From positions 1,984,001-2,048,000 of the forward strand of contig CM039009.1 of assembly GCA_017499595.2 (NCBI GenBank): a stretch of DNA of 64,000 nt. Direction: 5' to 3'. The position numbers and the translations under genes were made by a program. The notes under the pieces are model-generated. The model saw nothing but the letters and a program-made list of their open reading frames with translations. It ran no database searches and had not been told where the DNA came from. Each line of letters opens with the position of its first letter. The first letter of the stretch is position 1. This document shows positions 26,993-58,115 of this stretch, one piece after another. The stretch comes from Psilocybe cubensis. Taxonomy: Eukaryota.

Positions 26993-28660
26993 TCACAGCA
27001 TCGCGAGCCCTCTCTCCAAGTCGTCCTCGGCTGTAGTGAGCCATGCATATTCCCAATCGCCTACAATCATTTCTCCTAACTTTTCCAGCTTTTCAAGTCC
27101 AACCTCCTCTCCTTTTTGAACTTCCAAGAACTCCGGGGCATTAAATTCGTACAATAGGCCATGCGTCCTTGATGCTGAGTGTACAAAATTAGCAAACGGC
27201 CTCCGTATGGCGTCGTAGATATTCGTCAGCCTAGACAATGGCACCTGGGTTTGAACAGCTTTAGATATGAGGTGTGCAAGAATGTAAGAATCCTAGGTGA
27301 AATCAGCATAAGTTCGAAATTCGGATCTTAGCGTAATTTACTTCAATAGCTTGACCGGCACCATTCCCCTGATGAGGTGTCATTGCATGAGCCTAATAGT
27401 TGCGAAAGCCTAGTTAAAGTTTAATTGGACTGCATGGAGGCGGAGCACATACGGCATCACCGAGGAGAAGCACATTACCATATGTGTATGATCGTAGTGG
27501 CTGGATGGCATGGATAGCCCATCTCGATGGCTTAGACATGTGCTAGACAAGGGGAGGTCATGGAAAAAATAAATATCCTCAAAAATCGCAAACTAACCTT
27601 CACTAGGCAACGTACTTCCTCTTCCCAGCTGTCAAAAAATGGAACCACCTCCTCATTTTTTGCATCCTGAAACGACGGTCCATCATATTGAGTGCCTTCT
27701 TTCTCCATATCGCATACATACGCAGCGATATTGATGACACTGCCCTGGAGTATAGGATACGCCACAATATGCTGAAGAGTATCCAGGAGACAAAATTTTG
27801 GTTAGAATTGCATTCGCTTACCTGGTTTTTTCCACAGTACTGCCTTGACGGTGTTAATGTTTGTGCAGGAAGACGAGTCGCTACTTACGATCGTTGGGAT
27901 GTTTAGTGCGCGATGTTCGGGTAATTCAGCAGCAATCAGGTGGCTAGGGATCATCGATCGATACGCAAAGCTTCCGCTCCACACAGGGTCAGAGGTGGTT
28001 TGAGAGAAAGGCTCATTTTCCCTGACGAACTGCTTCCGCACCACGGATTTGAGTCCGTCAGCACCTACGAGGAGGTCGCAGTAGGCGGTCGTTCCATCTT
28101 CAAACGATAACTGGATTTCATTTGAAAGAACACTATAGCATCGAAGCCGCTTGGATAGATTGCACTGAATAGAAGGCGATAAGTTTTTTAACAGTACCTC
28201 CTGGACGACCGCACGATGGAATGACAGCGCGGCTCCTGCAAAAACAAGGTCTCGAATAGGTGTCCCATTGGGTTGGTCAGCTTTCCGGAAGTGAAACCCT
28301 AATCCTGTAATTGAGAGTTACTAGTAAGCTAGTAACATTTTTAATGAGAAAATGAACACCGACGTGGAGTTCCATCTGGAATGTGCTGGCCAGGAGACAG
28401 TTGACCTGCAAGCACGGAATCTACACCAAGTTTCTCTAAAATCTTCCAGGCGCGTGGCCAGAACGTTATTCCTGCACCAATTTGCGTCAATTCAGGTGCT
28501 GATTCATATATGTTGACTTGGATATGATCCTGGAGATTGAGTCGACTCAGAGCTACGGCCAAGGTCAGACCGCCAATTCCTCCACCTCTGTCTCCAATGT
28601 AAGCACATATTTCGACAAAATTCAAGGACTCGCCTACATAATTCCAATGCGCAATGGCAT
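26993..28660 (-). CDS. FAD-dependent monooxygenase (salicylate hydroxylase-like); multi-exon
   Basis: MPLRIGII|GGGIGGLTLA Rossmann motif; YESAPELTQIGAGI; DLLVGADGLKS; LLGDA|AHAMTPHQGNGAGQAIE|D. Confidence 0.92.
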
Positions 28661-29139
28661 CTTGAAGCTGTCAGAGTTTACAGATAAGAGGTTATCTATC
28701 CACACCCTCATGGATACTCCGCGCTGTAGTTCGAAAATGGCATCCTTTTCCTGACTGTGTGAACCCAGGGTAGGTGGTGAGAAACAGACCTTAACAATCT
28801 AAATTTTATCAAGGCCTAGCTCCAAGCTCAGTTGAGCCAAATAATGTAGGTCTGCCAGAGGTTGCGCCGAACATTGAAAATGAAATAGGCTTTGTAGGTT
28901 TGTAGCTTTGTACGGGGTCCCGGCTGGGTTTCTTGCTGTAGATCAGTTAATTCGAGCTCCGATTTAACTTCCCGTGACGGCGTGACCTGCGGTTTTTTTC
29001 CCGCTTTCTCCCGACTCCTTGAATGCGTTTCACTTTATCAACCAAACCAACTTTGTCAATATCATACTATTTACTTTCAAGATCCACTCCAATTTCAGAT
29101 ACTTTGAATCATCGTTGCTTCACAGTTGAAAGCTTGTGT

Positions 29140-29166
29140 CACTGCGGGGATTGGCATATATAGTCG
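29140..29166 (+). repeat. Left terminal inverted repeat (CACTG...)
   Basis: Reverse complement of 45016-45042 with 2 mismatches. Confidence 0.93.
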
Positions 29167-29599
29167 ATAATAAAATCGTCTCTTATATTGCGACTAAATT
29201 TTAAATATAATTGTTGTTCTGGATTAGATCAGAAATAGGAAAGATTTTTCAAAGATATTTTGCTGTTTATGTCACCCCGTCAAACCTCGACTACCTATTC
29301 AACAGTAGGCATAGTTTACATCTCGGACGGATTTTGAAATTCTGCCATGGCTTAATTCAGACATATCAGATTAGCACGTTTCCATATCTTATTTATTTTC
29401 TGCACCTGGCATAACCGCGAGGGATATCGAATATGACATAATCTCTCTGACTGTGGTTCTATTTGACCCATGTATTGTACAAACACTGTGACACCATCGT
29501 GAAAGTAAACTAAGCAGTGAAAACGGATTGTGTGATGAATGAAATTTGGGAAGGACACTCTACTCCAGCGGATCGCGCCTCCAAGGTAGCTCGTACGTA

Positions 29600-30347
29600 T
29601 CTGAAATATACATGGTAGGTAAACTTGTATCTGTGCACAATTTAAAAGTAAATAACTTACATAGAAATGGCCTTTTGGGTAAATAACCGGCCAACAGGAC
29701 GTGAAAGGATGCGAGTTCGACGTCCCAGAGAGAATATTATGAGCTCTCCGTGCCAGGGCGCATGAGGACAAATCTCATGTAAATTGAGATTTTGAGGAAG
29801 GGTGCTGTCATAGTAACCCATTATAAGGAAACGATGACGATCGACCGTGACAATGGTGGATGCCGTGGGGATGCAATTAGGATTTACAAGCACTCCGGCT
29901 ATGTCAATCTGAGGAGTTTCGGTGAAACTGCCAGAGTCCGTGGCTGCGAGTCGACATTGGAGCAGCATTGGATTTGCCGTTGTTAAAGAATAAAGCAGCC
30001 CTTTCCTGTACTTCTGTTGCAGGATCGTACTTTAGTTCTAGGTCTTCACTGGCTATAAAGTGGAAAACATACCTTGTCTCGTAATCTTTGGCTCCTGATT
30101 ACATGCACAACTCGTTCTGTGCTATGAGTTGGTAACTCGACAATCTCGGTCTCGTGGCGCGTAAGCTAGATAGAACTTGTGGTCAGAATTCTTGTAGTAA
30201 TCAAAGCATAACATGATGCTCACCATATTGATTTTGGGGATGCTGATGAGTAGGGGTGACTGAGGAACTTGGCTTTCAAGTTCGCGCAACTTTAAGTACC
30301 TCATCATCCTACTGCGCCATTTCAAAGTTGGATTCGAATGTGTCCAT
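29600..30347 (-). CDS. Small hypothetical passenger gene; exon structure and ends uncertain
   Basis: Exon-like segments ...VVHVIRSQRLRDK|GTATGT and ...RSCNRSTGKGLLYS...FLIMGYYDSTLPQNLNLHEICPHAPWHGELIIFSLG (ORF 29657-29968). Confidence 0.45.
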
Positions 30348-30749
30348 CGAGCTTCTTCTGGTCAGCCTAAACAGGGGATTATCTTTGAAAAGTATCGATA
30401 TCGACTTTTGAAATATATTCTACTGTTCAGCTCCTTACCTCTGATGCTTCCTTGACGAATAATCTTTGAAAAATAGCCGGCTGTTTTGGCCGGCTAGAAA
30501 TGTGGCAAATATTTCAAAAATAGCTGTCGCACAAAGAGCCAAGTGATCTTGGCACCAGATCAGACGATGTGAGTTCCGTTTTTTGTACATGATGCAGGCC
30601 GTACTCTGTAGGAATGCTTTGAAAGAATAATTTTTGACCAAATTTGAGGCTCGGGATTCTATCTTTATAATGATCGACGCCAAAGACAAGTGTTGAGTGT
30701 AGGCCCCATCCTCTAGTCGTCACTTTTACTCAACTTTCTCAAGCCAGAA

Positions 30750-32587
30750 ATGACGCCTTCCCGGATATTTTACGGGAATTCCCACGTACATCGACAGGCA
30801 ATTATCACTCTGCATGGCAAAGAAGCTGCTCACACTCTGAAGCTCTCGCACAGTGGTCGATTTCTTGCAGTCGGTAACGATGAGGGCCTCCTTGAAGTAT
30901 GTGAAAGGTCATTAATTTATTCTAGGTGTTTAGTGTGCTTAATAACTCCTAGATTTACATGCTCCATGACTCAGTTTGGAGAAGATTCGGCATTTACGAA
31001 AGCGGTACATCTATTCGCGCCCTTGCATGGCACCCATCGGAGGACTTGACTATTTTTTGTGGATCTGCCAATGGGTCTTTACATAGGATCACTATGCAAT
31101 TGGATGGGGTTAGTTTTACTTCTTTGTGTGCACTTTTCGCCTCACTGACTCTAATGCACCCCTTTCAGAGCTATGTTACATCTAGCGCTATTATACCAGG
31201 CTATATACACTCGCTGCAGCTGAGTCCAGACGGATCAAGGCTTGCAATTGGTCATGGGCGATCTGTTTCCATCGTAAAAGACCCGTTCATGGGTGAGTCA
31301 TTACAAGCACATCTCATTACTGATGTCATGGTCTGATGGGCGTAATAGAGCCAAATGAGCTGGGGGAAATGGCTAGACTGAACGTGTCATTGTCTCCCAA
31401 CGTTCAGAGTCTTTCCGAATATAAATTCTCACGCGGAATATTTTTTGCCTCAAGCCGGATAGTAATCATCCCTTTCCTTGGTACAGGAGGAATAACGTGT
31501 GTCATACTTCTTCATCTATCATTTCTGGACAACGCTAATTCGTCAATTATAGAGCATACAGCCTTAATGACTATTCCAGCAAGTGGTCCATTCAACTACG
31601 AGATAACACCTTGTAAGTGATATTGCAATTCCTTTGTAACTTGTTTGTTATAACAACTATGGTCTACAGTCTGGGCTCCGCTGCAATCTCACCGTCCGGA
31701 GAACGAGTTGCCGTTATGAACATGTGTGACGGTATAGACTTCTATTCAACCACCCATCGACGTCTTTTGTCGACTACGCGCTATGTCTTATCTAGCCGAA
31801 CTCCCCCAAGAAATCTGATAGTCGATATCATCTTTGTTGACGAAGATACTGTTGCCGTTGGCCATTCTGATGGCTATGTTGCTTTTGCGACATTTGGCGT
31901 TAGCGAGATATGCGGGACCTTTGCGCTCGATGACAACAATTACCGAGGTATGTCAAAGAGTTTTCAAAGAGAGCATTACATTCTGATTATGTTACCCAGC
32001 TCCAGTACAAGCCATAACATTTGGTCTTGTCAATCACCAGCCTCACATCTTCGCCGTTATACCCGCATTTAGTCCATGGATGCGCACACACGGTGCCATT
32101 GCCAATACTATCCACGTTGGACTCATACAAAACAACGACGAATCCGGTATTGGAGAAATTGATAGCACATTGGTATGCATAATCAGTTTGTTCTAATGTT
32201 CAATTAATTTTAACCACGGTGATACAGGATGATCAATACCCTTCAACTAGGACACGTCCGCTCACTATGTATAGTGCTAATACTTTCCACTTCACCACTA
32301 TGCAAGTAGCAATGTTGTTGCTTGTTACAATTTCTTCAACATTGTATGGGAAATATTTGCTCAGCACGGAGTCCCACTTGCCTCCGCCACATCTACAGGT
32401 CGCCGCAGTGACTGAACATCCCACCAATTCCGCATCAGAAACTTCGGTGAATCCATCTTCCCAGCCCCTTTTCTTGGAGGGATCACCAACCTCTCCTGCG
32501 CATCCCTTCTATGCATTCACATTAACCGGGATGGTCACTGGGTCTGCTTCAATTGCATTACCTACTGTAGGGAGTAATAGCGCGTGA
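30750..32587 (+). CDS. WD40-like beta-propeller protein with a C-terminal transmembrane segment (passenger gene); multi-exon
   Basis: Repeated blades LKLSHSGRFLAVGNDEGLLE, IRALAWHP...FCGSANGSL, IHSLQLSPDGSRLAIGHG, AAISPSGERVAV and IIFVDEDTVAVGHSDGYV; late hydrophobic stretch VAMLLLVTISSTLYG. Confidence 0.8.
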
Positions 32588-32738
32588 TGGTATTTCTCCA
32601 TACATAGATTACTCATTGACTTGTACATAATAAACATCCGAGTCCATATGCAATGCGTTAAATTGTTTTTTTTTCTCTATGGGAATATATTTGGTTATAA
32701 GTAATTGTCGCAGGAAGGCAGCTTTAACACGTTTTCCT

Positions 32739-34620
32739 ATGGCAACATTTCCTGAAATCATCGAGGAATTTTTATCTCGAGTCTTGCTACTCCCTCTTGA
32801 TGCTAGCAGGGAGGAAGTCAATATTGCACTCGCCAACTGCCTTCATTATGAGCAGCAAATTCGTCGTTGGTTTGCTCAGCACAGGAATCACCCCATTCTT
32901 ACCGAAGATCCCTATCTGGGCTTGATTAATATATTCCAGGTTCCCGACGCAGTTTTACGTTCCCGCCCTCGCTCAGACACAGAGAATATGCACATTTTGA
33001 CTTTTCCAGACAATAGCTACGAAGAATTTCCAGGATCCCATCTCCTACCTCTTCAGTCTGGACTTGTCAGGCCCCGGGGTAACCGTGCCATTGTTCCTAG
33101 TATTGAGGCCTTTCTGAACAATTTTCATATCTTCTCTCATGGCGCTCTGTCAAGGCTCCCAAGCTGGGAAAATATTGTTGTTGCTGGAGGATCTGTGTTG
33201 GGTTGTCTATCACCTCCTGTTAATGCGTCTAGCTCAAACATGGAGCTCAACGACTTGTACCAGTCGCCTGCATACTGGGACTCCGATATTGACTTATTCA
33301 TTTTTGGACTGTCTCACCAAGAGGTCAACTACGCTTTACCATCCTCCGGCGTACACTTACTGACATCTCATTATCTCGTAGGCCCTTCAGAAGATGGAGA
33401 ATATATACAATTCAATTCAAGAAACAATCCCTTTTCATACAATTTGCGTGCGCAGGGCAAATACCATTACAATCTATAGTGCGACAACTACTAATTTTTC
33501 CGATGTGTTTTTAAAGATGCTCACCATATTTTTCTTAGCAACATGGCCTGTAAGGCCAATCCAAATTATAATGCGACTGTATATGTCACCGTCTGAGATT
33601 CTTGCTGGGTTTGACATCGACTGCTCATGTTGCTTGTTTGATGGTACGAATTTCTTGACACAAATTGGTACATTTATTTTATTAACTGTGCTATTAGGTC
33701 AAAGTGTCTACGTAAATCCTCGGGCGCTTGCGGCGTTGATCTGTCAGTCAAACTTGATAGATATATCACGAAGATCACCTTCCTATGAAGTTCGCTTTGT
33801 GAAGTATTCTGAACGGGGATTTGAGGTCCACTATCCCGAATTAAATCGTCATAATATTGCTTACCAGAAAGTACGTCCAAATCTTTTTGTCTAACTGGAT
33901 ACATAATGACATCTATACAAAGCTTTATGACATCGACTTACAGGAGTATCCACAAGGCCTTTCATTTCTGATTGTCGGCGAGATGGAGCACAAGCGTCCC
34001 CACTACTACAATAATCTTTCTCAGTGGAAGGGTCGAGTTCCAAAGGCAAGACGTCTGTATGCACCTGAGAACATCGGGACTGCAAATTTGAAGGAGCTTA
34101 TATTCTCCAATAATTATGAGTATATTCGCATTCCCCATCGCCCAGGAGTAAATTCTAGAATAATTGAAAAATGGGTAAAGAGATTTGTGAGTTCCATCCA
34201 CATTTTTTCACCCAAATCTCATTGACTTTGTTAGGACGAGAGGGCAAATTCAAAGTATAACTTGGTAAACCTCAACCGAAACTTGCACAGGCATGCCGCT
34301 TTCGCTGGTACAATGGCAGAGTGTCTAGAAAATTTCTGCATGGTAAGTATTTCTTTATTCTCTCGTCATGGGGTCTAATGCCATACTGCGCTAGAATTGT
34401 CCTTCTCCTCAGAGCGCTGAAGAAGAAGCTTTAGTGACGGCTGAACCAATGTATATTCGGGGACCAGCCAGGTGAGTGCTACAACTCCGGTATAATTGCT
34501 CAACATGTGTCCTAACCTTTGAGCGTCAGATTCATTGAGTCGGACCCGGGCCGTCAGATGATTGGAAGTTTCAATCCAATCACCATTGATAATTGGACAG
34601 AAGGGGCCTATAGGAGTTAG
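32739..34620 (+). CDS. Nucleotidyltransferase-fold protein (Pol-beta superfamily-like), stand-alone form (passenger gene); multi-exon
   Basis: NIVVAGGSVLGCL...DSDIDLFIFG (hG[GS]...DxD); IQIIMRLY...SEILAGFDIDC; RRSPSYEVRFVKYSERGF; ends DPGRQMIGSFNPITIDNWTEGAYRS* with TAG at 34618-34620. Confidence 0.75.
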
Positions 34621-35640
34621 ATATGACGCCTTCAATCATGTAGATGATAACATTATGGTTAAAATCTCAGTGGGAAGTTGGGAATTGAATTAGCATTTGA
34701 TCATAAGGAGAATATTGCAGCACGTTGGCTCACCTATCTTATCAGTCATTGCAATTAGAGCCGGACTCGGACCGTACATTAGCACATGCTCTAGGATACA
34801 TATTCACATTGTACTCTTAAGACCGGCCATGGATTTGAACCAGGTTTAAGAAGCTTTACAAGCCTATCTCAGACCTGCTTGGTACTCTTGGGTAGATACA
34901 ATTGTATGAGAATGGCTAAGGATATCCCGGGCATGAATAAGCGTCAACTCGGGCATTAAATCCTCGTGTGCATATTGGTCCATAGGTGAGAAGCTGGGAT
35001 GACGGTAATACAATGCGTGTGGTCCTGATTTGCATTGCTGCGGCCCTTCTGTCTGCGCTCAAAGTCCAAAAAATCAAAACGCGCATGAACTGCATAGATA
35101 ATAAGCCCTAAAAGGTCTTGCTTCGGCTGTTTAGAAGCCTAATGACTGTTCTGGGCCTGAACACGCACACAAACCCTTGTGGGAAAACTTACATGACCGT
35201 GGTACTTTGTTAGTTCAGATGAACACGGTTTGTGGTGACAATGATGCACCACTGCGACACTAGATAGGGCTCTAGTGAAAGATTTAAGGAAAGTAAAATT
35301 TGTGAATACTTTCTATGTTTAACAGAGGCATTGATATTTTGAAAACCGTGATGTGTACTTGGTGGAGTGCAGTACTAGTGGGCGGAAAATATAGGGCACA
35401 TTAATTCTACATATCCCATAAGTTATCTGAACGTGGTAATTATAATGTGTTGCTTGACTCGTCAAAACCTCATGTTATATCTCCATCTTGGGCCATGACT
35501 TTGAGAAATAGGAAAACATGAGGCAGAGTTGGAAGAACGCTGATTATATTCTACAAAGTAAGCAAAGCATCCCAAAGACATAAAAGGCGTCCATTTTCCA
35601 GCCTAATACTCCTCAGCTCCTCTTCCCAACTCAAAGAGCG

Positions 35641-37523
35641 ATGTCATTCAGAAGCTTCTACTCCACCAGTCGCAGTCACCCAATGTCTGCAACTGCAAGC
35701 TACAAAGGTGCGTAGTTCTGTGTAAAGCACATTGGAATCAAATAACTGACCTTATGTTAAAGGATTTTCTGACAGCAGTCCACCAACGTCGCTCTCTGCC
35801 TCTGTTACTGCATCTGTTTGTAGTAGCGAGAGTTTCCAAACGGCCCAGCAGAGCGCATTCTCTCCTCAGTTTGCCGAGTCTTTCATTCGCGGTTTTGATT
35901 TGAATCGCACTGACACGGGGAGCGAATCATCCTTTGGAACTCACACTGGTTCCCTGGAGAATTTTTCTCCTGTTTCTGCTCCACACAACAACGACGTAAA
36001 AGGTTCTATGATGGTCGTAAGCCAAACTGTCTTATGCACAAAATTTGTTAAGTTTTTCTAACAACCTTCGTTAGGCTTGTGATGAAACGTCTGACAACAG
36101 TCCCCAAGATGAAGAGGTAAGTCTGTTACTTGTTGACACTATACATACTCTGATTAGCAAACAAAATTTGGTTGTATTCTTAGATGCATGATGAACTCAG
36201 TTCTGACTCTGCAGAGGAGACGGAAGATGAAGACTATATTGCCTCGGATGACGAGGCTCAAATGGTAAGTGAATGGTTGAAATTTTTTTGTCATATTAAT
36301 GTTTTTATTGTAGATTGTAACGGACTCGACCAATGTTCGACTCACACGTTTAGAAGCTAACATCACTGCCGTCTTAGCAGCAATCCAGTCACTCACAGCA
36401 GCAGCAGCAGCGTCGGCTCAGGGGCCTACTACTACCCCAACCTCTCGTCTTGGAGTTATCTCAACTCGACCACTTGGTCCAAATAGGCGCCCAGCAGACC
36501 GAACTGCTCTCATGGTGAGAAGTATTTTATTATAATATCCGGAATACTCGGTCTCACTGTTCTGTCTATAGCGCCAAGTCAGAGCAGAGCTCAGCCGACT
36601 GCTCGGTGATGATTTTCTGAGCTTCGAGAATGTCTTGACTCGTGACGAGCTCGATGTTTTTGGATCTATCTGGAAGTCTTCTACAGCTGAGCCACGTCCA
36701 TCTTGCTGTGACGTCGACAATTTTAAGGTCGACCTCATTGGTTCTCCCCGAAGTGATTGGAACCAATCAGCTTCACGAGTTTTTGCCAAGCACTTTGTTA
36801 CCACGTCGGCGTATAGTCACAGCTATTTCCCTCTGGTCCAGAATTATTTTTACCAGAGGATGAAGTCTCTTCAGGCAGCTTTTCGGAGGAAGAATGCGGA
36901 CGATGCTGCTCGACAGGCCGAAACCACTGCTAAGCGCCGCTGGCAAAGAAAACAAAATGTATGTATTAAATTTAATGTATGTTCCATTATTACATTTACT
37001 TATTCAATGTTTTAGCTCTTCCACAAGCGTCTTGGGATTGCCCAGGAGCACCCCCTCCTACAAGAGCATGTACCCATTCTACAACGTCTTGGTATTGCAG
37101 GGATGAGCTCAGACGAGAGCGATTTTGAGGATGGCCCGGCAAGCACTGCCACAGGGGGTGCTCCAAGATACAAAGTGCATCCCCCTGCCTGGCGTGCCTC
37201 TGCCCTCTCCTACTGGCTGCAGACAATTGATTCGCTCCAGGTTCTTTTTAGGAGATCCAATGGTAAGCATCGCGGCTCATTTCCTCGCCTCCGCGTTGCA
37301 TCTGGAGAAGACAGCGACAGCAAGGGCTTTGTCACTGACTTACCCATCACGGCATACAACCCAAACTGGCTTGCCGCTAGGCCATTTTATATGTTTGATG
37401 TTCGCCCGACCGATGAGAACTACAACTTCAATCACGACAACCGACTCTTTGCGTGAGTCAAACATATTTCTTCATTATACTGTGGCACTAACTACATTTT
37501 TCAATAGATATTTCCAAGTCTAA
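35641..37523 (+). CDS. Hypothetical multi-exon protein (transposon accessory ORF)
   Basis: ATG at 35641 and a series of GT-AG introns. Conserved-looking C-terminal block WNQSASRVFAKHF...KRRWQRKQN|LFHKR...LGIAGMSSDESD...PAWRAS...LPITAYNPNWL. Confidence 0.65.
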
Positions 37524-38528
37524 TGTTGTAGCCACCATCCTCAAATTAATCAGGGCTTGTCCTCCCTACCGTGTTAGCACAGGTTCCGAAAGAGGGTAGG
37601 AGTGCCCCGACATTCTTGATACGAAATCTTTTTTTTGTATGTTCCCTGCCATTCAAAATGGTCCGAAAGAGGGAAAAAGTTTTGATAATGTACATATACT
37701 TGACAACAATGATTCTACAATTCTATATCTTTGATTTCAATACTTCTTGAATTGAATTTTGGCACAATAATAAGTGTTGGAAGTCCCAAAACATACCACT
37801 TAGACAATTGGACACCAATCACATATGCTGATCACAATATATGTTGACACCTCAAAATAGTTAATCTGCCACCAACGTATGAGGGGATCAAAACACGCAG
37901 GCGTATTGTTTCTGCGCCACCACTAGCATAGGAAGCCTCTTCAGCGGCAACGGTAATGCACATGCGCACTCAACCATTTTTTGTTGATTCATGCGTCTGT
38001 CAGTCACATGATTCAAGAATGGCACAAGTGGTCTAGACTCTAGGTTGGTCTAGAACGCATTACCTAAGAGTAACACGTACGCACGGGCCATAGTTGACCG
38101 CATTAACATTATAGTCCAGGTAGAGTGTAACAGAGAGGGTTAGAAGTGCATTAAGCCACAAGCCAGGTTACCAGACATTGACAAAGTAATAAGTAGCAAA
38201 GAGAGTCAGCAGTTGTAGCAATTTTGAAGCAGTAGAATACAAAGGTGTAACCATATTGCCAACATGTCACCCAATCGGCCAATGTTCAGTGCTTCTATGC
38301 GTTGGAAAACAGCACTGTAGGTCATGAGATGTAACTTATCAAGTGGTTTTACTCAAATACTTCCACCGAATTCTTATAAATCATATCTGACAATGCGGGC
38401 CATATCACCGAGCTAACTCGTTACTCTTCTGAATCTTGGCATCCGAAGCAAAGATATCAATTGTCGCATTGCGATACAGTTATTAGCAACACATTTTTTT
38501 GCCTCTCTGTACCTTGGTTCACCTAGAC

Positions 38529-40555
38529 ATGCAATCCGTAATCCAGGACCTTGATCCAAACAGTGACTCCAGCCCGCCGCTCAACACTCAAAGGCTTCCC
38601 AACTATGATAAGCCACCATTCGTTCAGATTGAACATTTTCCGGACATTGATGTACGTATACCATATTCATCAACACAAATATGCTATCTCACTCTTGATC
38701 ATAGCTTCTTACTCACGATTTTGGGGAGCTAAACATGACAAGGTCGGTTGTTATCGATTAAAATATGATCTTTTATTCACTATAAGTATGCGCATACAAG
38801 GCCCCCCTATAACTCTCATGAGCAGAGGGAGTTCTCTGTCTCTGCAGCGCACAGTCGCTACCACTCTGAATCCAATATACCAGAGCGTCAACGCAGTCCG
38901 GACCGTGAAGGAATCCAGGTGTCTTCCCATGTTATTGCGCAACGGTCACAACAGGATTGGACTGAAGAAATTACGCGTGAGCTCAGACGCATCTCAGGCT
39001 CTAGTGGACATTCAGGGCAGCGCACCGGTCACAATCACTCTGGATCTGTTGCTAATCCAGTTGAACGGCGGGAAAGTGGTCCCCAGGAGCCTTTCAATCG
39101 TGGCCGCCGCGAAATGTCACTCCCCTTCACGCCAGCGCCATATCGAGCCGGCATTGAGGAGAAGAAATCTGAAGTTCGACGGGTGATTGCTTACTACTTT
39201 CACTCGTCTGCCGTTTCCCCCCAGAACGTTCATCAAGTAGTCAGTGTTATAACTGGCAGTACAGACGACTATGGAGCGTTGCTCTCCCAGCTCAATATCC
39301 TTGGTCCACCTACCAGGTATGAAGACATTGGCGAGGTCTATAACCGTCTACATTACATTGTATTTGGAGAAGAGAGAAACACGAATCCTCCGTAAGTTTT
39401 CTCATTTCATGTATATCAAAAAAATCAATTGATCATGTAAATCTATTGTATAGAAACTCTCTTTCGTACACCCCTGTCAGTGCTCACAACACCAGTCGTA
39501 GATTTATTATCGACAATGACCCGGGATCTATTTCTGCACCGAATACCCCGAGAGCACAACAGCGCAGTCCTACATCAGTTAGAGAACCTGCTGCGCTTGC
39601 TGCCCCAATTGCCGTGTATCCACTAAATCCGCCTACTTCTCGATCAACTCCTAGTCCTCCCATCCAGTCACGGATCGATGTTGGAGTGGGAAGTTTGCCT
39701 GCACGTCCTGTGTCTCAGAATATCAGAGAATCTTCAGCCACTTCAGGATTGCGTACCGCGCCAATTCTTTCCCCCACTTCACAAAATCAACAGTCTACAC
39801 CTCCCCATTCTTCGTTGGACCGGATGCTTTCCCACGCATCTAACTTGCCGCTCCCGCCTGTTTCTCCGGCGTCTGTACCCTTGGCAGCATCATCCTTTTC
39901 TGAGGGAACACCACGCCAGTCTGTTGCCCGTCATGCCACTCCACAGAGTCAAGTCAGTCCTCCACATTCTTTGGCACCCAATTCAAGTGCTTCCTTATCA
40001 TCTGCTACTACCTCACTCTCAACTGCAACATCCACTAATAATACTTCGGCATATTTTACCGCGCTATCTGCCAAGGTGTTTCACACAGAGATGGAAGGTA
40101 TAGACGGCCCAATCGATTTTACCTATACCATATCATGCTCGACAGGGCCTCTTGATAATCCACCCGTAGCAGCATTAGAAGAACCGCCTCAATCTGGCGA
40201 CCTTCTCTTCAATCAGTTCCCACATGCCGCACAGTCACTCAGGCAAGCACAAGTGTGGATGTACGTCGACGGTGTTTCTCCTAATGAGCAAGGAGTTTGG
40301 GTAAACATTTCATCTAACTACGGATCATTTGCGGGACAACCAATCCCACACCCTAGGGTCCCGAGTCGTTGCCTAAGTGTCTATCCTGGGAAGGAGGGAC
40401 GACCACGTTGGATAAAGGAGGAGACATGGAGTTCTAATCAGAAGAAATATTTGGCAGAAGCGGATAAGAAGAAACGATTAGATATAGGCCGTGCATCGCT
40501 GACTCCTGCGCCTTCTGCATCTCCATCTAGTGTTGCCAGAAGATCAAGTGACTGA
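38529..40555 (+). CDS. Hypothetical Ser/Pro-rich protein with a small globular C-terminal domain (transposon accessory ORF)
   Basis: Spliced ORFs 38499, 38919 and 39446-40555; C-terminal GDLLF...QVWMY...WV...HPRVPSRCL...PRWIKEETW. Confidence 0.6.
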
Positions 40556-40682
40556 CTAATACACAGATTACTCCAAACTCGTAGTAGCGGGAACAATAGC
40601 AGTAGGAACATGCTTGATACATTACTTTTGTACTGTCGCTTCAATGTCACTTCTTTTATTTCATACTCCTTTTCCTCTCACC

Positions 40683-43600
40683 ATGATAAGGCGTGGACGT
40701 GGCGGCCGGTCACGGCCTGTAATAGTAAACTGCAGATGCAAATCGCACTGCACAACGTTCAATGCCGCTACTGGACTCTATGAGGGAGATGGTATACTTC
40801 AGACACGTCCTACACGCGACAATCACATGAAAGACGATAGACTCCTGATAGCACTTTCTAATCACGCACCACAGCCAGTACATGTTCCTGACGGCAGCAC
40901 AGATGGCTCACCGTTTCAAGAGGTCTTTGATGAAATAGATATCATAATGTCCCAGTCACTGTCTGATGCTCTGCGCCCGTTTGACTTTGTAAACAAACCA
41001 GAAGACAATGGCCAATTTGTTTGGCCCAATGACGACGAAATTCTACTTCCAAATCATGGGCTATACTCGTTGAAAAACAGCCTTGTCAACAGAACATACT
41101 TACTTGCTGCGCATCGTCTTCGAGAAATCTACAACTGGGCAACAAATCCATTCATCCAGCACTCTGATGACATTACACCTTTATTGGATTGTATTATGGA
41201 GAAAATGGGAGAACTTGTACGGATGAAAGAAGTTCAGTGGTCTCAGCAGCGAGGAAATAGCCGCGTAGATGGTCCATACGTCAATACAGGTATGAAATCC
41301 CTTGTTCAAAAAGAATTATATTGTGCTGATTATAATACTGGCTTATATCGCAGATATATATTTCACACCTCTGCCTTCATTGAATCCGAGACAGAGGGTT
41401 GCTGTCTATATTTCCCTCGTCATGGAAAATATGTTTTTTGTACCGCGGCGAGCATTACGAACTTTATTGGCAGGCGCTCGATCTCTATTACGCTCTAACA
41501 ATGCATCCGAGACTGTTGTGGAAGAGATACCGGCGGATCCGCAGTCAGGAGCACATAGAGCACGCTTGAACCCTGAAACACGCCAATTTGTTGTTTGCCC
41601 AACCTGCCACAAACTATACCCATTCAAACCCGGTGATAGTCCTCTCAACGACAGTAATCCATTCATTTCAATTTGTATGCAGCGCCGCACCCCCGAGTCC
41701 AATGAGTGTAACACGCCTCTTTGGAAAGAAAAAACTACAAGCCGTGGGACCTCGTACCTAGTCCCAATTCGGAAGTACGTCCACCAGGATTTGAAGCATT
41801 GGGTCGGACGTCTACTCTCTAGAAAGGGGATGGAAGAACTTATTGACAAACAGAATGTGGATCTCAGCAGCACCTCCCCCACCTCACCCGTTAATGACAT
41901 TTGGTCAGCAAGTATTGTTAAAAATCTAGAAGATGGTTCTGGAAACAAGTTCATTCCCGGTAATAATGGCGAGGGGAGGCTATTATTTAGCCTATCGGTC
42001 GATAGCTTCAACCCATTCCACAATAAAACCGCCAAACAAAGTATATCATCGACTGGTATTTGGATGGTTTTACTCAACCTCCCGGCACATCTTCGATATC
42101 TCCACGAAAACATGTATGTTGCAGGTGTTATCCCCGGCCCAGATAAACCATCGAAGGAAGACATATATCCGTACGTTGAACTGGTTATGGAAGATCTTTT
42201 GGATTTTTGGTACCAGGGTGTTCGATTTTCGCGGACCGAGAGTAGCCTATTCAGCCGACTTTACAAAGCTATGCTCATTCCTCTGATTTGTGACATGCTG
42301 GCTGCACGCCAGATGGCTGGCCTGGGCGCTACAACATCTCATTATTTCTGCACCTTTTGCGAAATTGATCTTGACGATATAGACATTACAGATCGAGCAG
42401 AATGGCCGTCCAAGGATTTGCAACATATTCAGCATGTTGCTAACCTTTGGAAGAATGCGGCCAGTGAAAAGGAGCAGCAAACTATTTTCGAATCATATGG
42501 CATACGGTGGTCGCCTCTTCATACGCTTCCATATTGGGATGTTATCCGTTTTACTGTCATTGATCCTATGCACGCGCTTGACCTCAATTTATTCCAAAAT
42601 CATTGTCGCTCAGTCTTTCAAATTAACACAGGCGCTCAGGGTGGGGATGGTATTGGACCCTCACTTCCTCATGAGCGACATTTTACATCCAAAGATCACC
42701 TTCAGCATTTGCGACAGTGCCGGGAGCTCATCCGGTCTAACGACGATGACCTAATGACAAAGCTTCTTTTGCATCCGCGCCCTGTTCTGTATCAGATCTG
42801 CGTTGAAAATGACATCATTGGAGAAGGTCACCGGCGCATCATCGGGACAAAATGGATACTTGTTAATAACATATTGGCTTGGGTGAGTACTCATAACTAT
42901 TGTATTTTGGACAATGTGGATTCTCATTACGGTTATATTTTTATACAGAGGAACAGTCCAAATTATGTAGATGTCAGCACTTCCCCAGTTTCTCTGGATG
43001 ATGACCCATCCAACGATGAATTGGCTATATCACAAACTCCTATTCTTCCTTTGGATAGTGGCCTTGATCGTGCGCTTATCATTCGAATCTTACGACATCT
43101 CTTTGCTAGCGAAGATGTTGAGGCATCTCATTCTCGGGCATATGGCCAAGGGTCGGTTGCTGCATTTCTGTACATCTGTAATCTTGTGCACATATCCACC
43201 AGTGATGTCGATACAAGAAGGAAAACCGCAAAGCGGCGTTTATTTGACAAGATAATTGGAGAAGTAAGCATATATTTGATGCAGTTTCGTTTAACCTGTA
43301 AAATTAACACGCTCTTGCTATGCAGATAGAGCGAAATACGGGGGCGTCTCAAGAGCTGCAAATGTATATCCCCACTGTAGACGATTCTGCACGTCCTGTA
43401 CTCGGAATCGATGTCATGGAAGAAATTTGGTCTGAGATGACACGTACTCAACTTCCAACATGGATTACCCCCGCACCTCCCGACTGGGGTACATTCAGAC
43501 GGGGGAAACTTAGCGCTGACAACTGGCGAGTAATTTGCTCAATTCACTTGCCTATTACGCTTATTCGGCTCTGGGCAAATGGAACTGAGCGTAAACGGAG

Positions 43601-44735
43601 AATGCTTTCACATTTCATGGATCTCGTCTCTGCCGTTCGAATTGCAAATATGCGTGTTACATCTGAACTTCAAATCCAGGAATACAACCGTTATATGACT
43701 CGCTATGTGTCCAGGCTGAGGTCCCTTTATCCCGACCAAGCATTGAAACCAACACATCATGCCGCTCTTCATATAGGCGATATGTTGGGACTATTTGGTC
43801 CAAACCACTCTCATAGCGGCCCTCATTATGAGCGATATATTAATTTCTTCCATCGTGTAAATACCAATATGAAAGTTGGTACGTAGGGCCTCTACACATA
43901 TTCTACCATCAAAGCTGATCAACACTTTTCTAGGCGAATTAGAATCTACTCTACTTTACACATCTGCCCGGAGTGCAAACATTCGGGCTGCGCTTTCTGA
44001 CAATACTTCTCTGCGGAAATCAGTCATTGAACTTGTAAATGTCATGGACAATATCGACCAAGAGGACATTCGAGGATTTCGTTTGGCAACAATCCTTGAT
44101 CCTGACTCGCCAACATATACCCAGCGAAGCAAGTCTGATGTCGCTCCATTAGGGCAAGCGTATCATACTCAGCTCTGCGAACTTTTGGGTAGAGCTACTC
44201 ATACAATGCCAAGGGACGTAACATTTGTGAAAGAAATATCTCGCAAAGGAGTTTGCTACGGTGTTTCAGGAGCAACAACCTTCAAAAATAGTTCTATCAC
44301 ATTCCGATCTGACGATCCTCAGGACGCTGCTTCGTATGCCGGAATAACGACTCACATTTTTCACTATCGGTATCCCATATCCGAGAACCAATATGCCGAC
44401 GGCCACTTTCTCATTCTGCGAGAACTTGTTCCGATTGATACAACCATATTTGACCCTTACAAAAGCTTTACCTTTGGAGGATATCTTTGTAGGGAAACGG
44501 CGCAGACCCGAGTGATTAAACTCTCACAAGTTATATCACACTGTGCATTGACAAATCTTGTCACTGATCCCTTTAGAGGTTTATTTCACGTACTACCATT
44601 GGACAGGGTAAGCTGTTATTACCGCTTCACTGTTTGTCTCTACTGAGCGATGTTTCAAAGCTAATGCTGGAGTTTGATTCAATGGGTCTCAGCAGCCACG
44701 CGGAGGAAGCGAGTGATCAGGCCGCCGACCAATGA
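40683..44735 (+). CDS. CACTA/En-Spm Tnp2-family (Transposase_21-like) DDE transposase; ~6 exons
   Basis: CPTC; LLFSLSVDSFNPF; LLNLP..LRY..ENMYVAGVIPGP; LICDMLAARQMAG; FCTFC; IDPMH; KLSADNWR; KPTHHAALH...FGP...YERYI. Confidence 0.93.
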
Positions 44736-45015
44736 ATGTGCGCCGGTCACCCCGAACGACTTTTTCCGGAGTAGATTATTCATATTAATTATTATTTATG
44801 AGACGTACATGACATGTGGTCTGCGACCTGCCGGTGAAGAATGATGAAATATAATTGTTCTTTCGGCTTCGAATTCTTCTCAATTAATAAGCACAAAATA
44901 CTGTACAATCACAACAGCAGCATATTTTTCAAAGGGAAAGCTAGATATACGCATGTGATTAAATAACTAAATACTTTACATATGGAATCGGACATGAAAT
45001 CGACGAAGACGGGCC

Positions 45016-45042
45016 CGACTATATATGCCAAACCCCCCAGTG
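45016..45042 (-). repeat. Right terminal inverted repeat (...CAGTG)
   Basis: Complementary to 29140-29166; followed by TSD TGT. Confidence 0.93.
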
Positions 45043-45464
45043 TGTATAGCTTTCAATGTATTCCCAATCCCTTAAATTTTTGCAAATCAGATCCCCAGGC
45101 GACGATAGCACCAATGGTGTGTATGGAGGAAAGAACGTTGTATGACAATCCACTTATATGATGTGAATGCTACTAAGTCAAGGAATATTTAGTTGATATA
45201 CTCTCTTCCAATCATACTGTTAACAAAGGTTGTTTCGACATCAACAAGCAAGCTCAACCGAAGTTGCTCTTTATAGATAACTTCGCAGCTCACTGGTAAT
45301 TTTAGGAGTGCTGTGTCTTGTGGCTCCTTTCTGATAAGAGGTTCTAACCATGCGTTTTATTAACCGAGAAGCCTTGATTGTGGCCTTTGCTGACATAGAA
45401 GAAGAATGGGATTCAATATAATAATTGAACCTATCGTTTATTCCTTCCCTCCACAGAACCGAGA

Positions 45465-46538
45465 ATGCGTACCGTAATCCTTCTGGCTGCTCTGGGGCTC
45501 TCTGGAACTGTCTGTTCCTCTCCTCTCCGTGTTCGTGACATTCCTACCCCAGTTGATGGAGAAACGGCAAGACAATTCTTATCAGAGCGTAGGCTAATTT
45601 TTACCCTCCTAGTTTTAAGTTGCAACCTTATCAGGACCGCTACTTTTAGTCGTAGTTGCCGTCGACTCGAATGACCCACCGTATAGTCGCTCTCTATTCA
45701 AGACCTGGGATTTAAGTAATCTACTGGTCGCTCTTGTTTCAAGCGTTCGGCTCTAACTCACACACTGCAGTCTCTGGAAACTGTGATACACGAGAGAGTA
45801 AGCAAATCCTCTAACCTTCTTCTGTTATCCCTTTGCATTCTCAAATATATCCTTGTAGCGGTTCTCATTCGAGACGGCACTAACGTGGTCACCAACAAGG
45901 CGTGTGCCTCGGTATCTGGAAATTGGGTATCCCCATATGATGGTGTTCCAACGACGCTTGCCAGCGATCTCGATATTGTGAGAACTTTCATGGAAGATTG
46001 TCATTCTATAGCTTATGATCTACTTTTAGGACCACCTTGTCCCACTGAAAGAGGTATTTTCCCTTTATGTTAACATTTTCTAGAAGATACTCATTGAATT
46101 TACTATAAGGCATGGCTCTCAGGAGCCCGAGATTGGACTCCCGCTCAGCGTGAGGCCTTTGCGAATGATCTCGTCCGTCCTCAACTTGTTGCTATAACTG
46201 ATAAGTGAGTATCTCGACACAAGGTTTATTTAACGGTGTCTCACAAAACCCGCCTCTCCAGTTTGAATGATTCTAAAGGTGCGCCTAAGTGACAAGTTCG
46301 ACGAAGACCGTCAATCTCATTCAAGTGCGCCATCTTACTAGGTGATAGGGGTAAGTCGATTAAAAATAGATCGTTTTAAATCTGATCATGGTGCATAGAT
46401 GTCGCCCATTTTTTGCCTCCTCTTGCGAGTTATGTTTGCACATACGTTCGCGCATGGGTTACTGTCAAGCACTTTTATAACTTGACGATGGATACAGCTG
46501 AACAAGCTGCTTTGACGACACAGTTGGCTAATTGCTAA
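45465..46538 (+). CDS. Secreted DUF1524 / HNH-type nuclease-like protein, copy 2; multi-exon
   Basis: Signal peptide MRTVILLAALGL; CDTRE|TVLIRDG, WVSPYDG, DI|DHLVPLKE|AWLSGA, FANDLVRPQL, NDSKGDRD and CTYVRAWVTVK. Same intron positions as 16826-17894. Confidence 0.88.
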
Positions 46539-46934
46539 GCTGTGACGGGCAGTCAATATAATTGCGTCGAGTTTTCTATGCACCTTTTACGGTTAAGTGG
46601 AGTGATTCCTCGGTCGTCTCATTGTTCTTTTCCGAATTTTACCTGCAACTCATTCTGATTCCCGTGGTTTCTCGTTCTTAACGTCTGAGGGAAGTGAACC
46701 TTTTGTGCTGATTACCGTTATCTCAATCTGTCCTAATATGGGTGACATTGGGCGCCCCATTTTTCCCGGGCCTTTTGATATCATGAAAGAGATCCAAGTT
46801 GGCTTCGCTCATCATCGGTAGTTTATTCACTTGATCAAAATCCATCTAAGCGTGCGCCTTCCGGTGTATATAAAGAGAGTCCTGATTTTGCTGTCTTCTT
46901 AGCCGTCAGCTTACACCCATCATTCGCCAATACC

Positions 46935-55864: not shown

Positions 55865-56109
55865 GCTATCGAGATGTGAAGTCACCTCTGGTTATAATTA
55901 TGGCCCTATTGAATATTCAGTAGTGACCTCCATTCAACACCCAATCATCAAAAGTTTGCGGTATCTGAGTTCACATCTTCTTTCTCTGGACCGTGGAATG
56001 CAAAACAACTGAATTCACAGCAACCAAGCACCTACCAGCGATTGCTATCGAGCATCGGAATGGAGACCGATCAGCAAAAACAAGGACGAGATAATACATT
56101 TACGTCCAC

Positions 56110-57544: not shown

Positions 57545-58115
57545 GGGTGACCATCGGGAGGTAGTCAAATTTGAGAGGCAAGAGCACCAAAGCCACTGGA
57601 TTGACGAACCCAGTCGCCGGTTTCCCACAGCTGATTCAGGTTGTCTATCAAAGGCTTATGACTTTCTCACGCTACATGCCATGAACTCTTCAACAGACTT
57701 CGATATGCTTCCCTATGCTCCTCTATGCTCCCACTGTAACTTTTATTTATTTTTGCGACGCAGCGTCATCCTTGTAAGATGCGAGAACACCAACGAGGGG
57801 GTGTAGAGCACGAGGATTGATGATAGAATAACGCACGCAGCATGTTCTGCTATTGGTCAATTTCGAGTGACTCAGGCTCGCAACGGACTCGCACCACGAA
57901 GAACCAAATCACGTTAAATACTTGTTTATTACCAACAGTCTACTTTTTAAATGTACTTTGCTACCAATCAAAAGACTCCAAACCTCATACTGGTATCCTA
58001 TATATGCTACTGAAACGCATCGGCTCCTTGGGAAAAAGGCACTGGTCATAGCTATCAGAAATAATAACGCCAACGTGGTCAGTGGGTAAGAAGACAAGAG
58101 CAAATTCATAACCAC

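What the first reader, a model, noticed from the sequence alone, without database searches (positions are those of the whole stretch)
29140..45042. Complete 15.9-kb cargo-carrying CACTA transposon in a mushroom-type genome
Seen in the sequence: 27-bp TIRs starting CACTG (25/27 match), a perfect 3-bp TSD (TGT), an apparently intact Tnp2-family transposase at the right end, and about five further spliced genes inside (small minus-strand ORF, WD40-TM protein, nucleotidyltransferase-fold protein, two unknown ORFs). Established: CACT[A/G] termini with 2-3 bp TSDs define the CACTA/En-Spm superfamily, and canonical elements encode only one or two proteins. Inference: this is a large multi-gene vehicle, functionally like a cargo-mobilising giant transposon but driven by a DDE transposase. 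Four of the five passenger genes are co-oriented with the transposase and look intact, suggesting a maintained module rather than random capture.
Basis: partly seen in the sequence, partly recalled or inferred. Interest (0 to 1): 0.92.

Follow-up and report, generated by a model that had tools for sequence, protein, structure and literature searches.

The report
Active multi-gene CACTA transposon in Psilocybe
This is a real, recently mobile 15.9-kb CACTA-type DNA transposon in the mushroom Psilocybe cubensis; most of its extra genes belong to the transposon family itself, and only one looks like a captured host gene.

Summary
The 27-bp CACTG inverted ends match 25/27, TGT is duplicated on both sides, and a 1260-aa Tnp2 transposase reads without stops. 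Two strain assemblies and 19 raw reads join the flanks exactly, skipping 15,906 bases (15,903-bp element plus one TGT). Protein hits place the window in Psilocybe cubensis.

I examined 44 related transposase loci from metagenomes. Gene c (DUF8263-like, JR316_0012584) recurs in 13 of 44, the WD40-like gene a in 8 of 44, and the small gene e in 4 of 44. In two pairs of related elements, a and c have dN/dS of 0.11-0.24, close to the transposase (0.03-0.21). Seven relatives share the terminus CACT[GA]GGG[GA]C[AT]TTGGC. These genes are therefore the family's own accessory genes, not cargo.

Only gene b looks captured. It is an intact 499-aa protein with a polymerase-beta-type nucleotidyltransferase fold, it belongs to a large Agaricales family, and it is absent from all 44 loci. 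A diverged P. cubensis paralogue pair (b-like and c-like genes three locus tags apart) suggests it has travelled with the element for some time.

A second, 96-98% identical copy carries CpG-to-TpG decay and premature stops.

Verdict: a new variant of a known kind, of moderate interest. It is not a Starship-like cargo vehicle.

The parts
29137..29139 (.). Left copy of the 3-bp target site duplication (TGT)
   Evidence: The empty allele in X8, X9 and X13 has a single TGT.
29140..29166 (+). Left terminal inverted repeat, CACTGCGGGGATTGGC...
   Evidence: 25/27 match to the right TIR. The first 16 bp resemble the termini of related elements.
29510..30307 (-). Gene e: small protein, about 206-aa model in 4 exons, divergent from gene a
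   Evidence: Script model. Homologues at E 1e-5 to 1e-9 in L001, L022, L005 and L031; in L001 and L022 they again lie divergent from an a homologue. dN/dS 0.19 between L001 and L022.
30750..32587 (+). Gene a: WD40/beta-propeller-like protein, 521-aa model in 6 exons, with a non-conserved hydrophobic C-terminus
   Evidence: Model, with one weak donor at 31617. WD40 hit below the Pfam cut-off. Atlas neighbours are WD40 propellers. Homologues in 8 of 44 related loci. dN/dS 0.16-0.24.
32739..34620 (+). Gene b: 499-aa polymerase-beta-type nucleotidyltransferase-fold protein in 8 exons; probable captured host-family gene
   Evidence: Model. 444 relatives at E<=1e-3. P. cubensis paralogues. Fold matches to class II CCA-adding enzymes and FAM46, Z 9.4-5.4. 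No homologue in 44 related loci.
35683..37523 (+). Gene c: JR316_0012584, 480 aa, DUF8263-like; the conserved partner of this transposase family
   Evidence: 100% hit. Homologues in 13 of 44 loci, 10 of them directly upstream of and co-oriented with the transposase. dN/dS 0.11-0.17. Atlas neighbours are Basidiomycota clusters; two of them carry PF26792 in 15% and 25% of members. Paralogue P0276 carries PF26792.
38529..40555 (+). Gene d: JR316_0012585, 609 aa, Ser/Pro-rich with a structured C-terminal domain, directly upstream of the transposase
   Evidence: Only P. cubensis hits in the near-length search. Weak similarity (E 0.005) to the ORF directly upstream of the transposase in L017 and L018.
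40683..44646 (+). Tnp2-family (Transposase_21) DDE transposase, 1260-aa model; exons 40683-41289, 41354-43263, 43326-43878, 43934-44646
   Evidence: All 49 columns that are invariant in the alignment of 26 sequences are by definition kept in the window's protein, including a CxxC at residues 352-355 of the ORF.
45016..45042 (-). Right terminal inverted repeat
45043..45045 (.). Right copy of the target site duplication (TGT)
29140..45042 (+). Whole element, 15,903 bp, inserted between two divergently transcribed host genes
   Evidence: Empty-site joint. Spliced RNA contigs of the flanking genes in X10: CT..AC introns up to 28896, GT..AG introns from about 45299.

Best explanation
This is an autonomous, recently mobile CACTA/EnSpm cut-and-paste transposon of Psilocybe cubensis.

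Mechanism (inferred from the family): the Tnp2 DDE transposase recognises the CACTG termini, excises the 15.9-kb unit and reinserts it, duplicating 3 bp.

Family: the element belongs to a mushroom (Agaricomycete) CACTA family. Members share a 16-bp terminus and a conserved set of accessory genes. These are a DUF8263-like protein (c), usually just upstream of the transposase, a WD40-like propeller protein (a), a small protein (e), and probably a fast-evolving Ser/Pro-rich protein (d).

Role of the accessory genes: they are kept by selection acting on the element. I infer that they help transposition or its regulation, as TnpA does in maize En/Spm (recalled analogy, not tested).

Captured gene: in the Psilocybe lineage the element also picked up one complete host-family gene (b), a polymerase-beta-type nucleotidyltransferase. 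A diverged P. cubensis gene pair suggests b has stayed linked to c for a long time.

Silencing: CpG-to-TpG changes have eroded the second copy. That is the pattern expected from deamination of methylated cytosine, so I infer that the host silences such copies.
For: Shown:
- TIRs, TSD and uniqueness.
- A precise empty site in X8, X9 and X13.
- In X13 the element depth is about 16 against about 34 in the flanks.
- Tnp2 domain and an intact 1260-aa model.
- Conserved termini in 7 related loci: L001, L002, L003, L006, L017, L018, L022.
- L001 and L022 are collinear at 86% over 13.8 kb that contains c, a, e and the transposase. The homology ends exactly at the CACTA terminus.
- Presence in related loci: c in 13/44, a in 8/44, e in 4/44; b in 0/44 and d in 0/44 at E<=1e-4.
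- dN/dS between L001 and L022: a 0.16-0.24, c 0.11-0.15, e 0.19, transposase 0.09-0.21. Between L024 and L028: c 0.17, a 0.20, transposase 0.03-0.09.
- b has a nucleotidyltransferase fold and keeps the GG...DxD motif.
- b belongs to a host family with several P. cubensis paralogues and ankyrin-fused forms.
- The b-like JR316_0000061 and the c-like JR316_0000064 lie on one 4.68-Mb contig.
- The second copy, JR316_0012733 and JR316_0012734, is 96-98% identical. Its differences are nearly all C>T or G>A, and its d is truncated.
- 18 of 25 listed C>T changes fall at CpG, against 450 of 2565 cytosine sites; Fisher p 2.6e-9.
Against: - No expression or splicing data exist for any gene of the element. 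The one probable RNA run has zero depth on it, but its strain may lack the element.
- Transposition itself has not been seen; only a presence/absence polymorphism.
- Gene c is missing from 10 of the 19 related loci that have 2.5 kb or more upstream of the transposase. Gene a is missing from 16 of the 24 that have 5 kb or more of flank. The accessory set is therefore not universal.
- Gene a needs a weak splice donor. Its tblastn segments in L001 and L022 contain 1-2 stop codons each; these may be introns or decay.
- Two c homologues carry stops: L042 has 2 and L022 has 1.
- No left terminus was found in any related locus, so no relative is delimited on both sides.
- Between the two near-identical P. 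cubensis copies, 17 of 23 listed coding changes are non-synonymous, so no constraint is visible at that short range.
- The fold of c gave no clear match, so its role is inferred from position only.
Confidence: 0.8

Rival explanations
1. The element is a cargo vehicle comparable to giant cargo-mobilising elements: the five extra genes are host-derived passengers, kept because they benefit the host or the element, and moved by a DDE transposase.
For: The element is large and carries five genes besides the transposase. Gene b does belong to a host-like family with paralogues elsewhere in the genome. It is absent from the 44 relatives.
Against: Genes c, a and e recur with related transposases in other fungi, in several arrangements, and a and c are under purifying selection like the transposase. 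Gene d has weak positional counterparts. So at most one of the five genes is cargo. No known metabolic, resistance or virulence domain was found in any ORF. At 15.9 kb the element is within the range reported for multi-ORF En/Spm (passage in PMC6431247).
Confidence: 0.1
2. An ordinary CACTA element whose non-transposase ORFs are decaying relics or over-predicted gene models with no function.
For: No Pfam family passes its threshold for any of them. There are no RNA data. Gene a needs a weak donor. Changes between the two near-identical copies are mostly non-synonymous and include stops in e and d of the other copy.
Against: Gene b aligns end to end with its family and keeps all conserved motifs. 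Genes c and d are independently annotated proteins. dN/dS is 0.11-0.24 for a, c and e across two independent pairs of related elements.
Confidence: 0.07
3. A host chromosome segment that became bracketed by two CACTA ends (a macrotransposon or nested composite). On this view the inner genes were ordinary neighbours at some donor locus.
For: A second, near-identical set of c and d lies in inverted order on the same contig. A diverged b...c pair lies elsewhere in the genome.
Against: The same gene kinds accompany related transposases in unrelated metagenomic fungi. The L001/L022 homology block containing them ends at the CACTA terminus. No second internal pair of termini exists in the element.
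Confidence: 0.03

Closest known systems
CACTA / En-Spm (EnSpm) superfamily of DNA transposons, Tnp2 (Pfam Transposase_21) transposases; fungal EnSpm of the CMC/CMCT clade
   Same: CACT[A/G] termini, 3-bp TSD, a Tnp2 transposase with a CxxC motif, and a second gene next to the transposase. PMC12730594 passages give CAC..GTG termini and 3-bp TSDs for fungal EnSpm. PMC5751038 passages report CMC/EnSpm as abundant in Agaricomycetes.
   Different: Six genes instead of one or two. The accessory genes (DUF8263-like, WD40-like, small protein) have no similarity I could detect to any described family. Maize TnpA is recalled only and was not compared.
Enlarged En/Spm families of the red alga Chondrus crispus (16-20 kb, 4-5 ORFs; Kojima et al. 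2013 as cited in a passage of PMC6431247)
   Same: Size class and multi-ORF content in a CACTA element.
   Different: A different kingdom. The ORF identities were not visible to me: I read only the one-sentence passage, so homology of the extra ORFs is untested.
Fungal DNA transposons that captured a TET/JBP dioxygenase (Kyakuja, Zisupton, Plavaka, EnSpm and others; PMC12730594)
   Same: Basidiomycete DNA transposons that carry a complete captured enzyme gene plus further proteins. The authors propose that the enzyme helps the element escape silencing (abstract and passages).
   Different: No TET/JBP domain is present here. The captured gene is a nucleotidyltransferase-fold protein of unknown activity.
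Starships and other cargo-mobilising elements of fungi (PMC11162782, search listing and start of abstract only)
   Same: A mobile unit that carries protein-coding genes besides its mobilisation enzyme.
   Different: No tyrosine-recombinase 'captain' is present (that it defines Starships is recalled). The element is one to two orders of magnitude smaller than typical Starships (recalled). It has a DDE transposase with TIRs and a 3-bp TSD. Most extra genes are family-own, not variable cargo.
Class II CCA-adding enzymes, poly(A) polymerases and TENT5/FAM46 terminal nucleotidyltransferases (for gene b only)
   Same: Fold: Z 9.4 (rmsd 3.1, 171 aligned) to 3wfo_A. The nine best rows are all of these enzyme kinds, and the Foldseek top rows are the same kinds. 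GG...DxD motif.
   Different: 10-17% identity. No Pfam hit. A roughly 30-residue insert lies between the GG and DxD motifs. The C-terminal half is unrelated. Activity and substrate are unknown.

Membership tests
CACTA/EnSpm superfamily | Terminal inverted repeats beginning 5'-CACT(A/G) | tested here: met
   CACTG at both ends, 25/27.
CACTA/EnSpm superfamily | 2-3 bp target site duplication | tested here: met
   TGT on both sides and once in the empty allele.
CACTA/EnSpm superfamily | Transposase of the Tnp2/Transposase_21 (PF02992) kind | tested here: met
   E 1.6e-11, 44.3 bits against a cut-off of 28.6. 154 relatives, nearly all carrying PF02992.
CACTA/EnSpm superfamily | [quoted passage not shown] | tested here: inconclusive
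   An invariant C352-x-x-C355 is seen. I did not assign the DDE residues or locate an H(3-4)H pair.
CACTA/EnSpm superfamily | Subterminal repeats bound by an accessory protein (recalled for maize En/Spm) | tested here: inconclusive
   The 8-mer CTTTGAAA (either strand) occurs 9 times in the 64-kb window, 7 of them in the terminal 2.1 kb of the element. It was picked after the fact and binding is untested.
CACTA/EnSpm superfamily | Mobility (insertion polymorphism with an exact empty site) | tested here: met
   X8 and X9 contigs and 19 X13 reads skip exactly 15,906 bases.
Starship-type giant cargo elements | Tyrosine-recombinase 'captain' gene at one end (recalled definition) | tested here: not met
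   Pfam scans of all stop-to-stop ORFs of 90 aa or more in the element found only PF02992 above cut-off.
TET/JBP-carrying fungal transposons | A TET/JBP dioxygenase gene inside the element | tested here: not met
   No such Pfam hit in any ORF.
Polymerase-beta-like nucleotidyltransferase superfamily (gene b) | Nucleotidyltransferase fold with the hG[GS]...D-x-D motif | tested here: met
   Model pLDDT 78.8. Top matches are CCA-adding enzymes and FAM46, Z 9.4-5.4, Foldseek E 4e-3 to 5e-2. AGGSV...SDIDLF is kept in b. The fold model is of homologue P0154, not of b itself.
Plavaka / KDZ transposons | Plavaka (PF18759) or KDZ transposase | tested here: not met
   No hit in the element. A separate Plavaka ORF lies at 5777-7732, outside it.

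The most novel reading that the evidence does not exclude
This mushroom CACTA lineage is a self-contained multi-protein transposon. Its conserved propeller (a), DUF8263-like (c), small (e) and Ser/Pro-rich (d) proteins would be needed for transposition or for evading host silencing. The captured nucleotidyltransferase (b) would be a counter-defence enzyme, for example one that tails small RNAs or transcripts, playing the role proposed for TET/JBP genes captured by other fungal transposons.
Probability: 0.15. Interest if true: 0.7.

Novelty: new variant of a known kind. Interest (0 to 1): 0.45.

Why it matters
- It gives a well-delimited and apparently intact DNA transposon in a mushroom of current research interest, with filled and empty alleles segregating among strains. 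That makes it a candidate for a native transposon tool and a marker of strain history.
- It shows that a family of Agaricomycete CACTA elements carries a conserved accessory gene set under selection: a WD40-like protein, a DUF8263-like protein and a small protein. I found no description of this in the searchable literature. 'DUF8263' gave 0 papers, the CACTA+WD40+transposase+fungal listing of 7 papers held nothing relevant by title or abstract, and the Psilocybe+CACTA hits were botanical. Supplementary tables of PMC12730594, which I could not open, may list such families.
- It assigns a context, and so a testable role, to DUF8263 and to a large unnamed nucleotidyltransferase family of Agaricales.
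- The CpG-biased decay of the sister copy is a natural record of how this fungus inactivates a DNA transposon.

Tried and rejected
- No whole genome is held for the window. Earlier-findings look-ups returned nothing.
- No RNA holder is listed for the element. The probable RNA run X10 covers only the flanking genes, and its strain may lack the element, so nothing can be said about expression.
- Pfam found nothing above cut-off for a-e, even at E<=5. A PDB sequence search with b exon 1 gave only chance-level rows.
- The model of c (pLDDT 63) gave no clear match: Foldseek best E 0.96, VIA best Z 6.4 on helical segments.
- Left termini of the related elements were not found. An L002 candidate (13/16 match, flanks TCC versus AAA) was rejected.
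- The contigs behind the loci could not be searched further.
- The WD40 part of the Gymnopilus protein P0124 (WD40 plus two b domains) is only weakly similar to gene a: pairwise E 0.004, and E 0.003-0.009 to the a regions of L028 and L032. I kept this as a lead only.
- The best hit of b in the 44 loci is E 0.088, at the very end of L039. I treated it as no hit.
- Two rows with stop codons (L042, L022) were dropped from the c alignment.
- Unresolved: whether the near-identical copy JR316_0012733/JR316_0012734 is a second locus or the other haplotype assembled in inverted order, and whether X13's copy sits at this site. No loose ends at the termini were among those listed, but 7 rows were hidden.
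- The complex-prediction tool was not used.

Full report
**1. Observation**

The ends are as described.
- The left end at 29140-29166 is CACTGCGGGGATTGGCATATATAGTCG. The reverse complement of 45016-45042 differs from it at two positions.
- A degenerate pattern of the 27-mer occurs only at these two places in the window. None of 100 shuffles gave any match.
- It is the only inverted repeat of 40 nt or more in the 64 kb.
- TGT flanks both ends.
- The flanks beyond the TSD are themselves palindromic (TTGAAAGCT ... AGCTTTCAA). The target was therefore a short palindrome.

**2. Mobility**

No genome is held for the window, so I used public runs. I laid four of them on 27200-47000.
- One contig of X8 (same species label as the best holders) and one of X9 (another label) run from the left flank straight into the right flank. 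They skip 15,906 bases, with 5 letters that fit either side. That is the 15,903-bp element plus one TGT.
- In the raw DNA reads of X13, 19 reads show the same joint.
- X13 depth is about 30-41 per bin in the flanks and about 10-22 (mean near 16) over the element.
- X8 has zero depth on the element. X9 has only three short diverged pieces.

The insertion is therefore polymorphic, and the empty allele is exact, as expected for a never-occupied site.

The probable RNA run X10 shows spliced transcripts of a minus-strand gene ending at 28896 and of a plus-strand gene from about 45299. The element thus sits in a divergent promoter region of roughly 500 bp. X10 has no depth on the element, but its strain may lack it, so this says nothing about expression.

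**3. Organism and transposase**

ORF 41296-43329 carries PF02992. Its relatives are Agaricales proteins: the best is 65% identical, and the named ones (Agrocybe, Gymnopilus, Candolleomyces) are about 40-50%.

The proteins of two inner genes are 100% identical to JR316_0012584 and JR316_0012585 of Psilocybe cubensis.

Homologue alignments and splice sites give a four-exon transposase of 1260 aa without stops: 40683-41289, 41354-43263, 43326-43878 and 43934-44646. It aligns to homologues over residues 9-1257.

**4. The other genes**

| Gene | Coordinates (strand) | What it is |
|---|---|---|
| e | 29510-30307 (-) | 206-aa script model |
| a | 30750-32587 (+) | 521-aa model in six exons with one weak donor; sub-threshold WD40 hit; WD40-propeller neighbours in the Atlas |
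| b | 32739-34620 (+) | eight exons, 499 aa; aligns end to end to family members (P0154 1-477, E 1.6e-112); keeps AGGSV...SDIDLF...GFDID |
| c | 35683-37523 (+) | JR316_0012584, 480 aa |
| d | 38529-40555 (+) | JR316_0012585, 609 aa, Ser/Pro-rich with a structured C-terminal part |

Pfam gives nothing above cut-off for any of them.

**5. Cargo, or the element's own genes?**

A profile of the transposase fetched 44 related loci from metagenome contigs, with up to 10 kb of flank. I ran tblastn with the element's proteins at E<=1e-4.

| Gene | Loci with a homologue (of 44) | Where |
|---|---|---|
| c | 13 | in 10, directly upstream of and co-oriented with the transposase |
| a | 8 | upstream or downstream, either strand |
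| e | 4 | in L001 and L022, again divergent from a |
| b | 0 | - |
| d | 0 | - |

Among loci with enough flank:
- Of 19 loci with 2.5 kb or more upstream, 9 have c.
- Of 24 loci with 5 kb or more of flank, 8 have a.

The set is therefore common but not universal.

L001 and L022 are collinear at 86% identity over 13.8 kb that contains c, a, e and the transposase. The homology stops at ...CCCTAGTG, a CACTA terminus. The terminus CACT[GA]GGG[GA]C[AT]TTGGC recurs at the right ends of L001, L002, L003, L006, L017, L018 and L022, and it resembles this element's ends. No left end was found in any locus.

Nei-Gojobori dN/dS:

| Pair | a | c | e | Transposase |
|---|---|---|---|---|
| L001 / L022 | 0.16-0.24 | 0.11-0.15 | 0.19 | 0.09-0.21 |
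| L024 / L028 | 0.20 | 0.17 | - | 0.03-0.09 |

Some segments contain stops that may be introns or decay.

Gene d has only weak counterparts. The ORF directly upstream of the transposase in L017 and L018 matches at E 0.005, and a similarly placed Ser/Pro-rich ORF pair lies in L001.

I conclude that c, a and e, and probably d, are the family's own accessory genes.

**6. Gene b**

Its first exon has 444 relatives at E<=1e-3 among 1.84 billion representatives.
- Some are about 400-600 aa proteins. Many are the N-terminal domain of 1400-2000 aa ankyrin-repeat proteins.
- Ten relatives were looked up by name: five are P. cubensis proteins, three are from Gymnopilus, and one each from Pholiota, Pleurotus and Hebeloma.

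An AlphaFold model of family member P0154 has pLDDT 78.8 and pTM 0.83.
- Foldseek's top rows are class II CCA-adding enzymes, TUTases and FAM46, at E 4e-3 to 5e-2.
- With VIA-align the nine best rows are CCA-adding or A-adding enzymes and FAM46B, at Z 9.4-5.4. Unrelated rows sit at Z near 3-4.

Gene b is absent from the 44 relatives; the best hit is E 0.088. Its closest paralogue, JR316_0000061 (63% identity over the first 195 residues), lacks the middle of the domain. That paralogue lies three locus tags from JR316_0000064, a c paralogue (69% identical on the C-terminal exon, PF26792), on one 4.68-Mb contig. A d paralogue at 42% identity also exists in the species, but its location is unknown.

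This pattern suggests that b was captured in the Psilocybe branch of the family and has since been carried along with c.

**7. A sister copy and its decay**

JR316_0012734 is 98% identical to c and has two extra Ala. JR316_0012733 is 96% identical to d and ends prematurely after ...LLFN. Both lie on the same 2.56-Mb contig, in reversed gene order.

X13's element reads carry the matching 6-nt insertion at 36395 in 14 of 16 reads, and they differ from the window in all reads at every listed site. X13 therefore holds the sister type.
- Of 158 changed places over the laid stretch, 103 are C>T or G>A and 34 are T>C or A>G.
- Of the 25 C>T/G>A changes among the 35 element sites that were listed, 18 are at CpG. 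CpG accounts for 450 of 2565 cytosine sites (Fisher p 2.6e-9). TCG is the most hit context, with 10 changes.
- Passages of PMC3318451 attribute CpG transitions in Agaricomycotina repeats to deamination of methylcytosine. They report a TpCpG-specific process only in Pucciniomycotina.
- Of 23 listed coding changes, 17 are non-synonymous. They include a stop in e.

The window's copy is the less damaged of the two. Whether the sister copy is a second locus or the other haplotype assembled in inverted order is unresolved.

**8. Comparison with what is known**

The element meets the tested defining features of CACTA/EnSpm: termini, 3-bp TSD, a Tnp2 transposase, and mobility.

Multi-ORF En/Spm of 16-20 kb are reported in Chondrus (passage in PMC6431247). 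Fungal EnSpm and other DNA transposons that captured TET/JBP genes are described in PMC12730594 (abstract and passages).

It is not a Starship-like element. No recombinase-type gene was found, and most of its genes are not variable cargo.

I found no description of the a/c/e gene set or of DUF8263 in the searchable library.

**9. Verdict**

This is a genuine, apparently intact and recently mobile CACTA transposon with an unusually rich but largely family-own gene set, plus one captured nucleotidyltransferase gene. It is a new variant of a known kind, of moderate interest. The accessory proteins and b are worth experimental follow-up.

Noticed in passing
window 5777-7732 (+): A 651-aa ORF with a Plavaka transposase domain (E 6e-64) and DUF6830 (E 4e-45). 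This is a second, unrelated CMCT-clade DNA transposon about 21 kb left of the element. Repeats at 8.3-9.3 kb lie just beside it.
   Followed up: partly
window 56100-63700 (-): Four tandem units of about 2.0 kb (63-88% identity between copies), each with a 260-350-aa minus-strand ORF that has no Pfam family. It looks like a tandemly duplicated gene family.
   Followed up: partly
window 1311-1496: Two tandem copies of a 93-nt unit at 96% identity, inside an ORF.
   Followed up: no
window 29126-29139 and 45043-45056: The insertion target is a short palindrome: TTGAAAGCT, 7 nt, AGCTTTCAA in the empty allele. This may hint at a target preference.
   Followed up: no
window 29247, 30320, 30383, 30464, 30617, 44653, 44927: The 8-mer CTTTGAAA (either strand) occurs 9 times in the 64-kb window, 7 of them in the terminal 2.1 kb of the element. 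These could be subterminal binding motifs, but the motif was picked after the fact.
   Followed up: partly
window 42346-42386, 44654-44686, 44774-44778 (run X13): 10-27 reads match only these short stretches and run on into unlike sequence on both sides. They are probably more diverged Tnp2 elements elsewhere in that genome, or a small structural difference near the right end.
   Followed up: no
proteins P0135, P0139, P0149 and P0124 (relatives of gene b): The b-type nucleotidyltransferase domain forms the N-terminus of 1800-2000-aa ankyrin-repeat proteins in Pholiota, Pleurotus and P. cubensis. In a Gymnopilus protein it occurs twice behind a WD40 propeller. It is a large Agaricales family without a Pfam model.
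   Followed up: partly
L017 1466-2464, 18419-18847 and 20675-20690: In this relative an Spt5-like host gene lies 6.8 kb upstream of the transposase. The family terminus lies 7.1 kb downstream of it, with a TPR-repeat ORF in between. Other family members may therefore carry different extra genes.
   Followed up: partly
P. cubensis proteins JR316_0012733 / JR316_0012734 versus JR316_0012585 / JR316_0012584: A near-identical gene pair lies in inverted order about 150 locus tags away on the same contig. It is either a true second insertion or the other haplotype folded into the assembly.
   Followed up: partly
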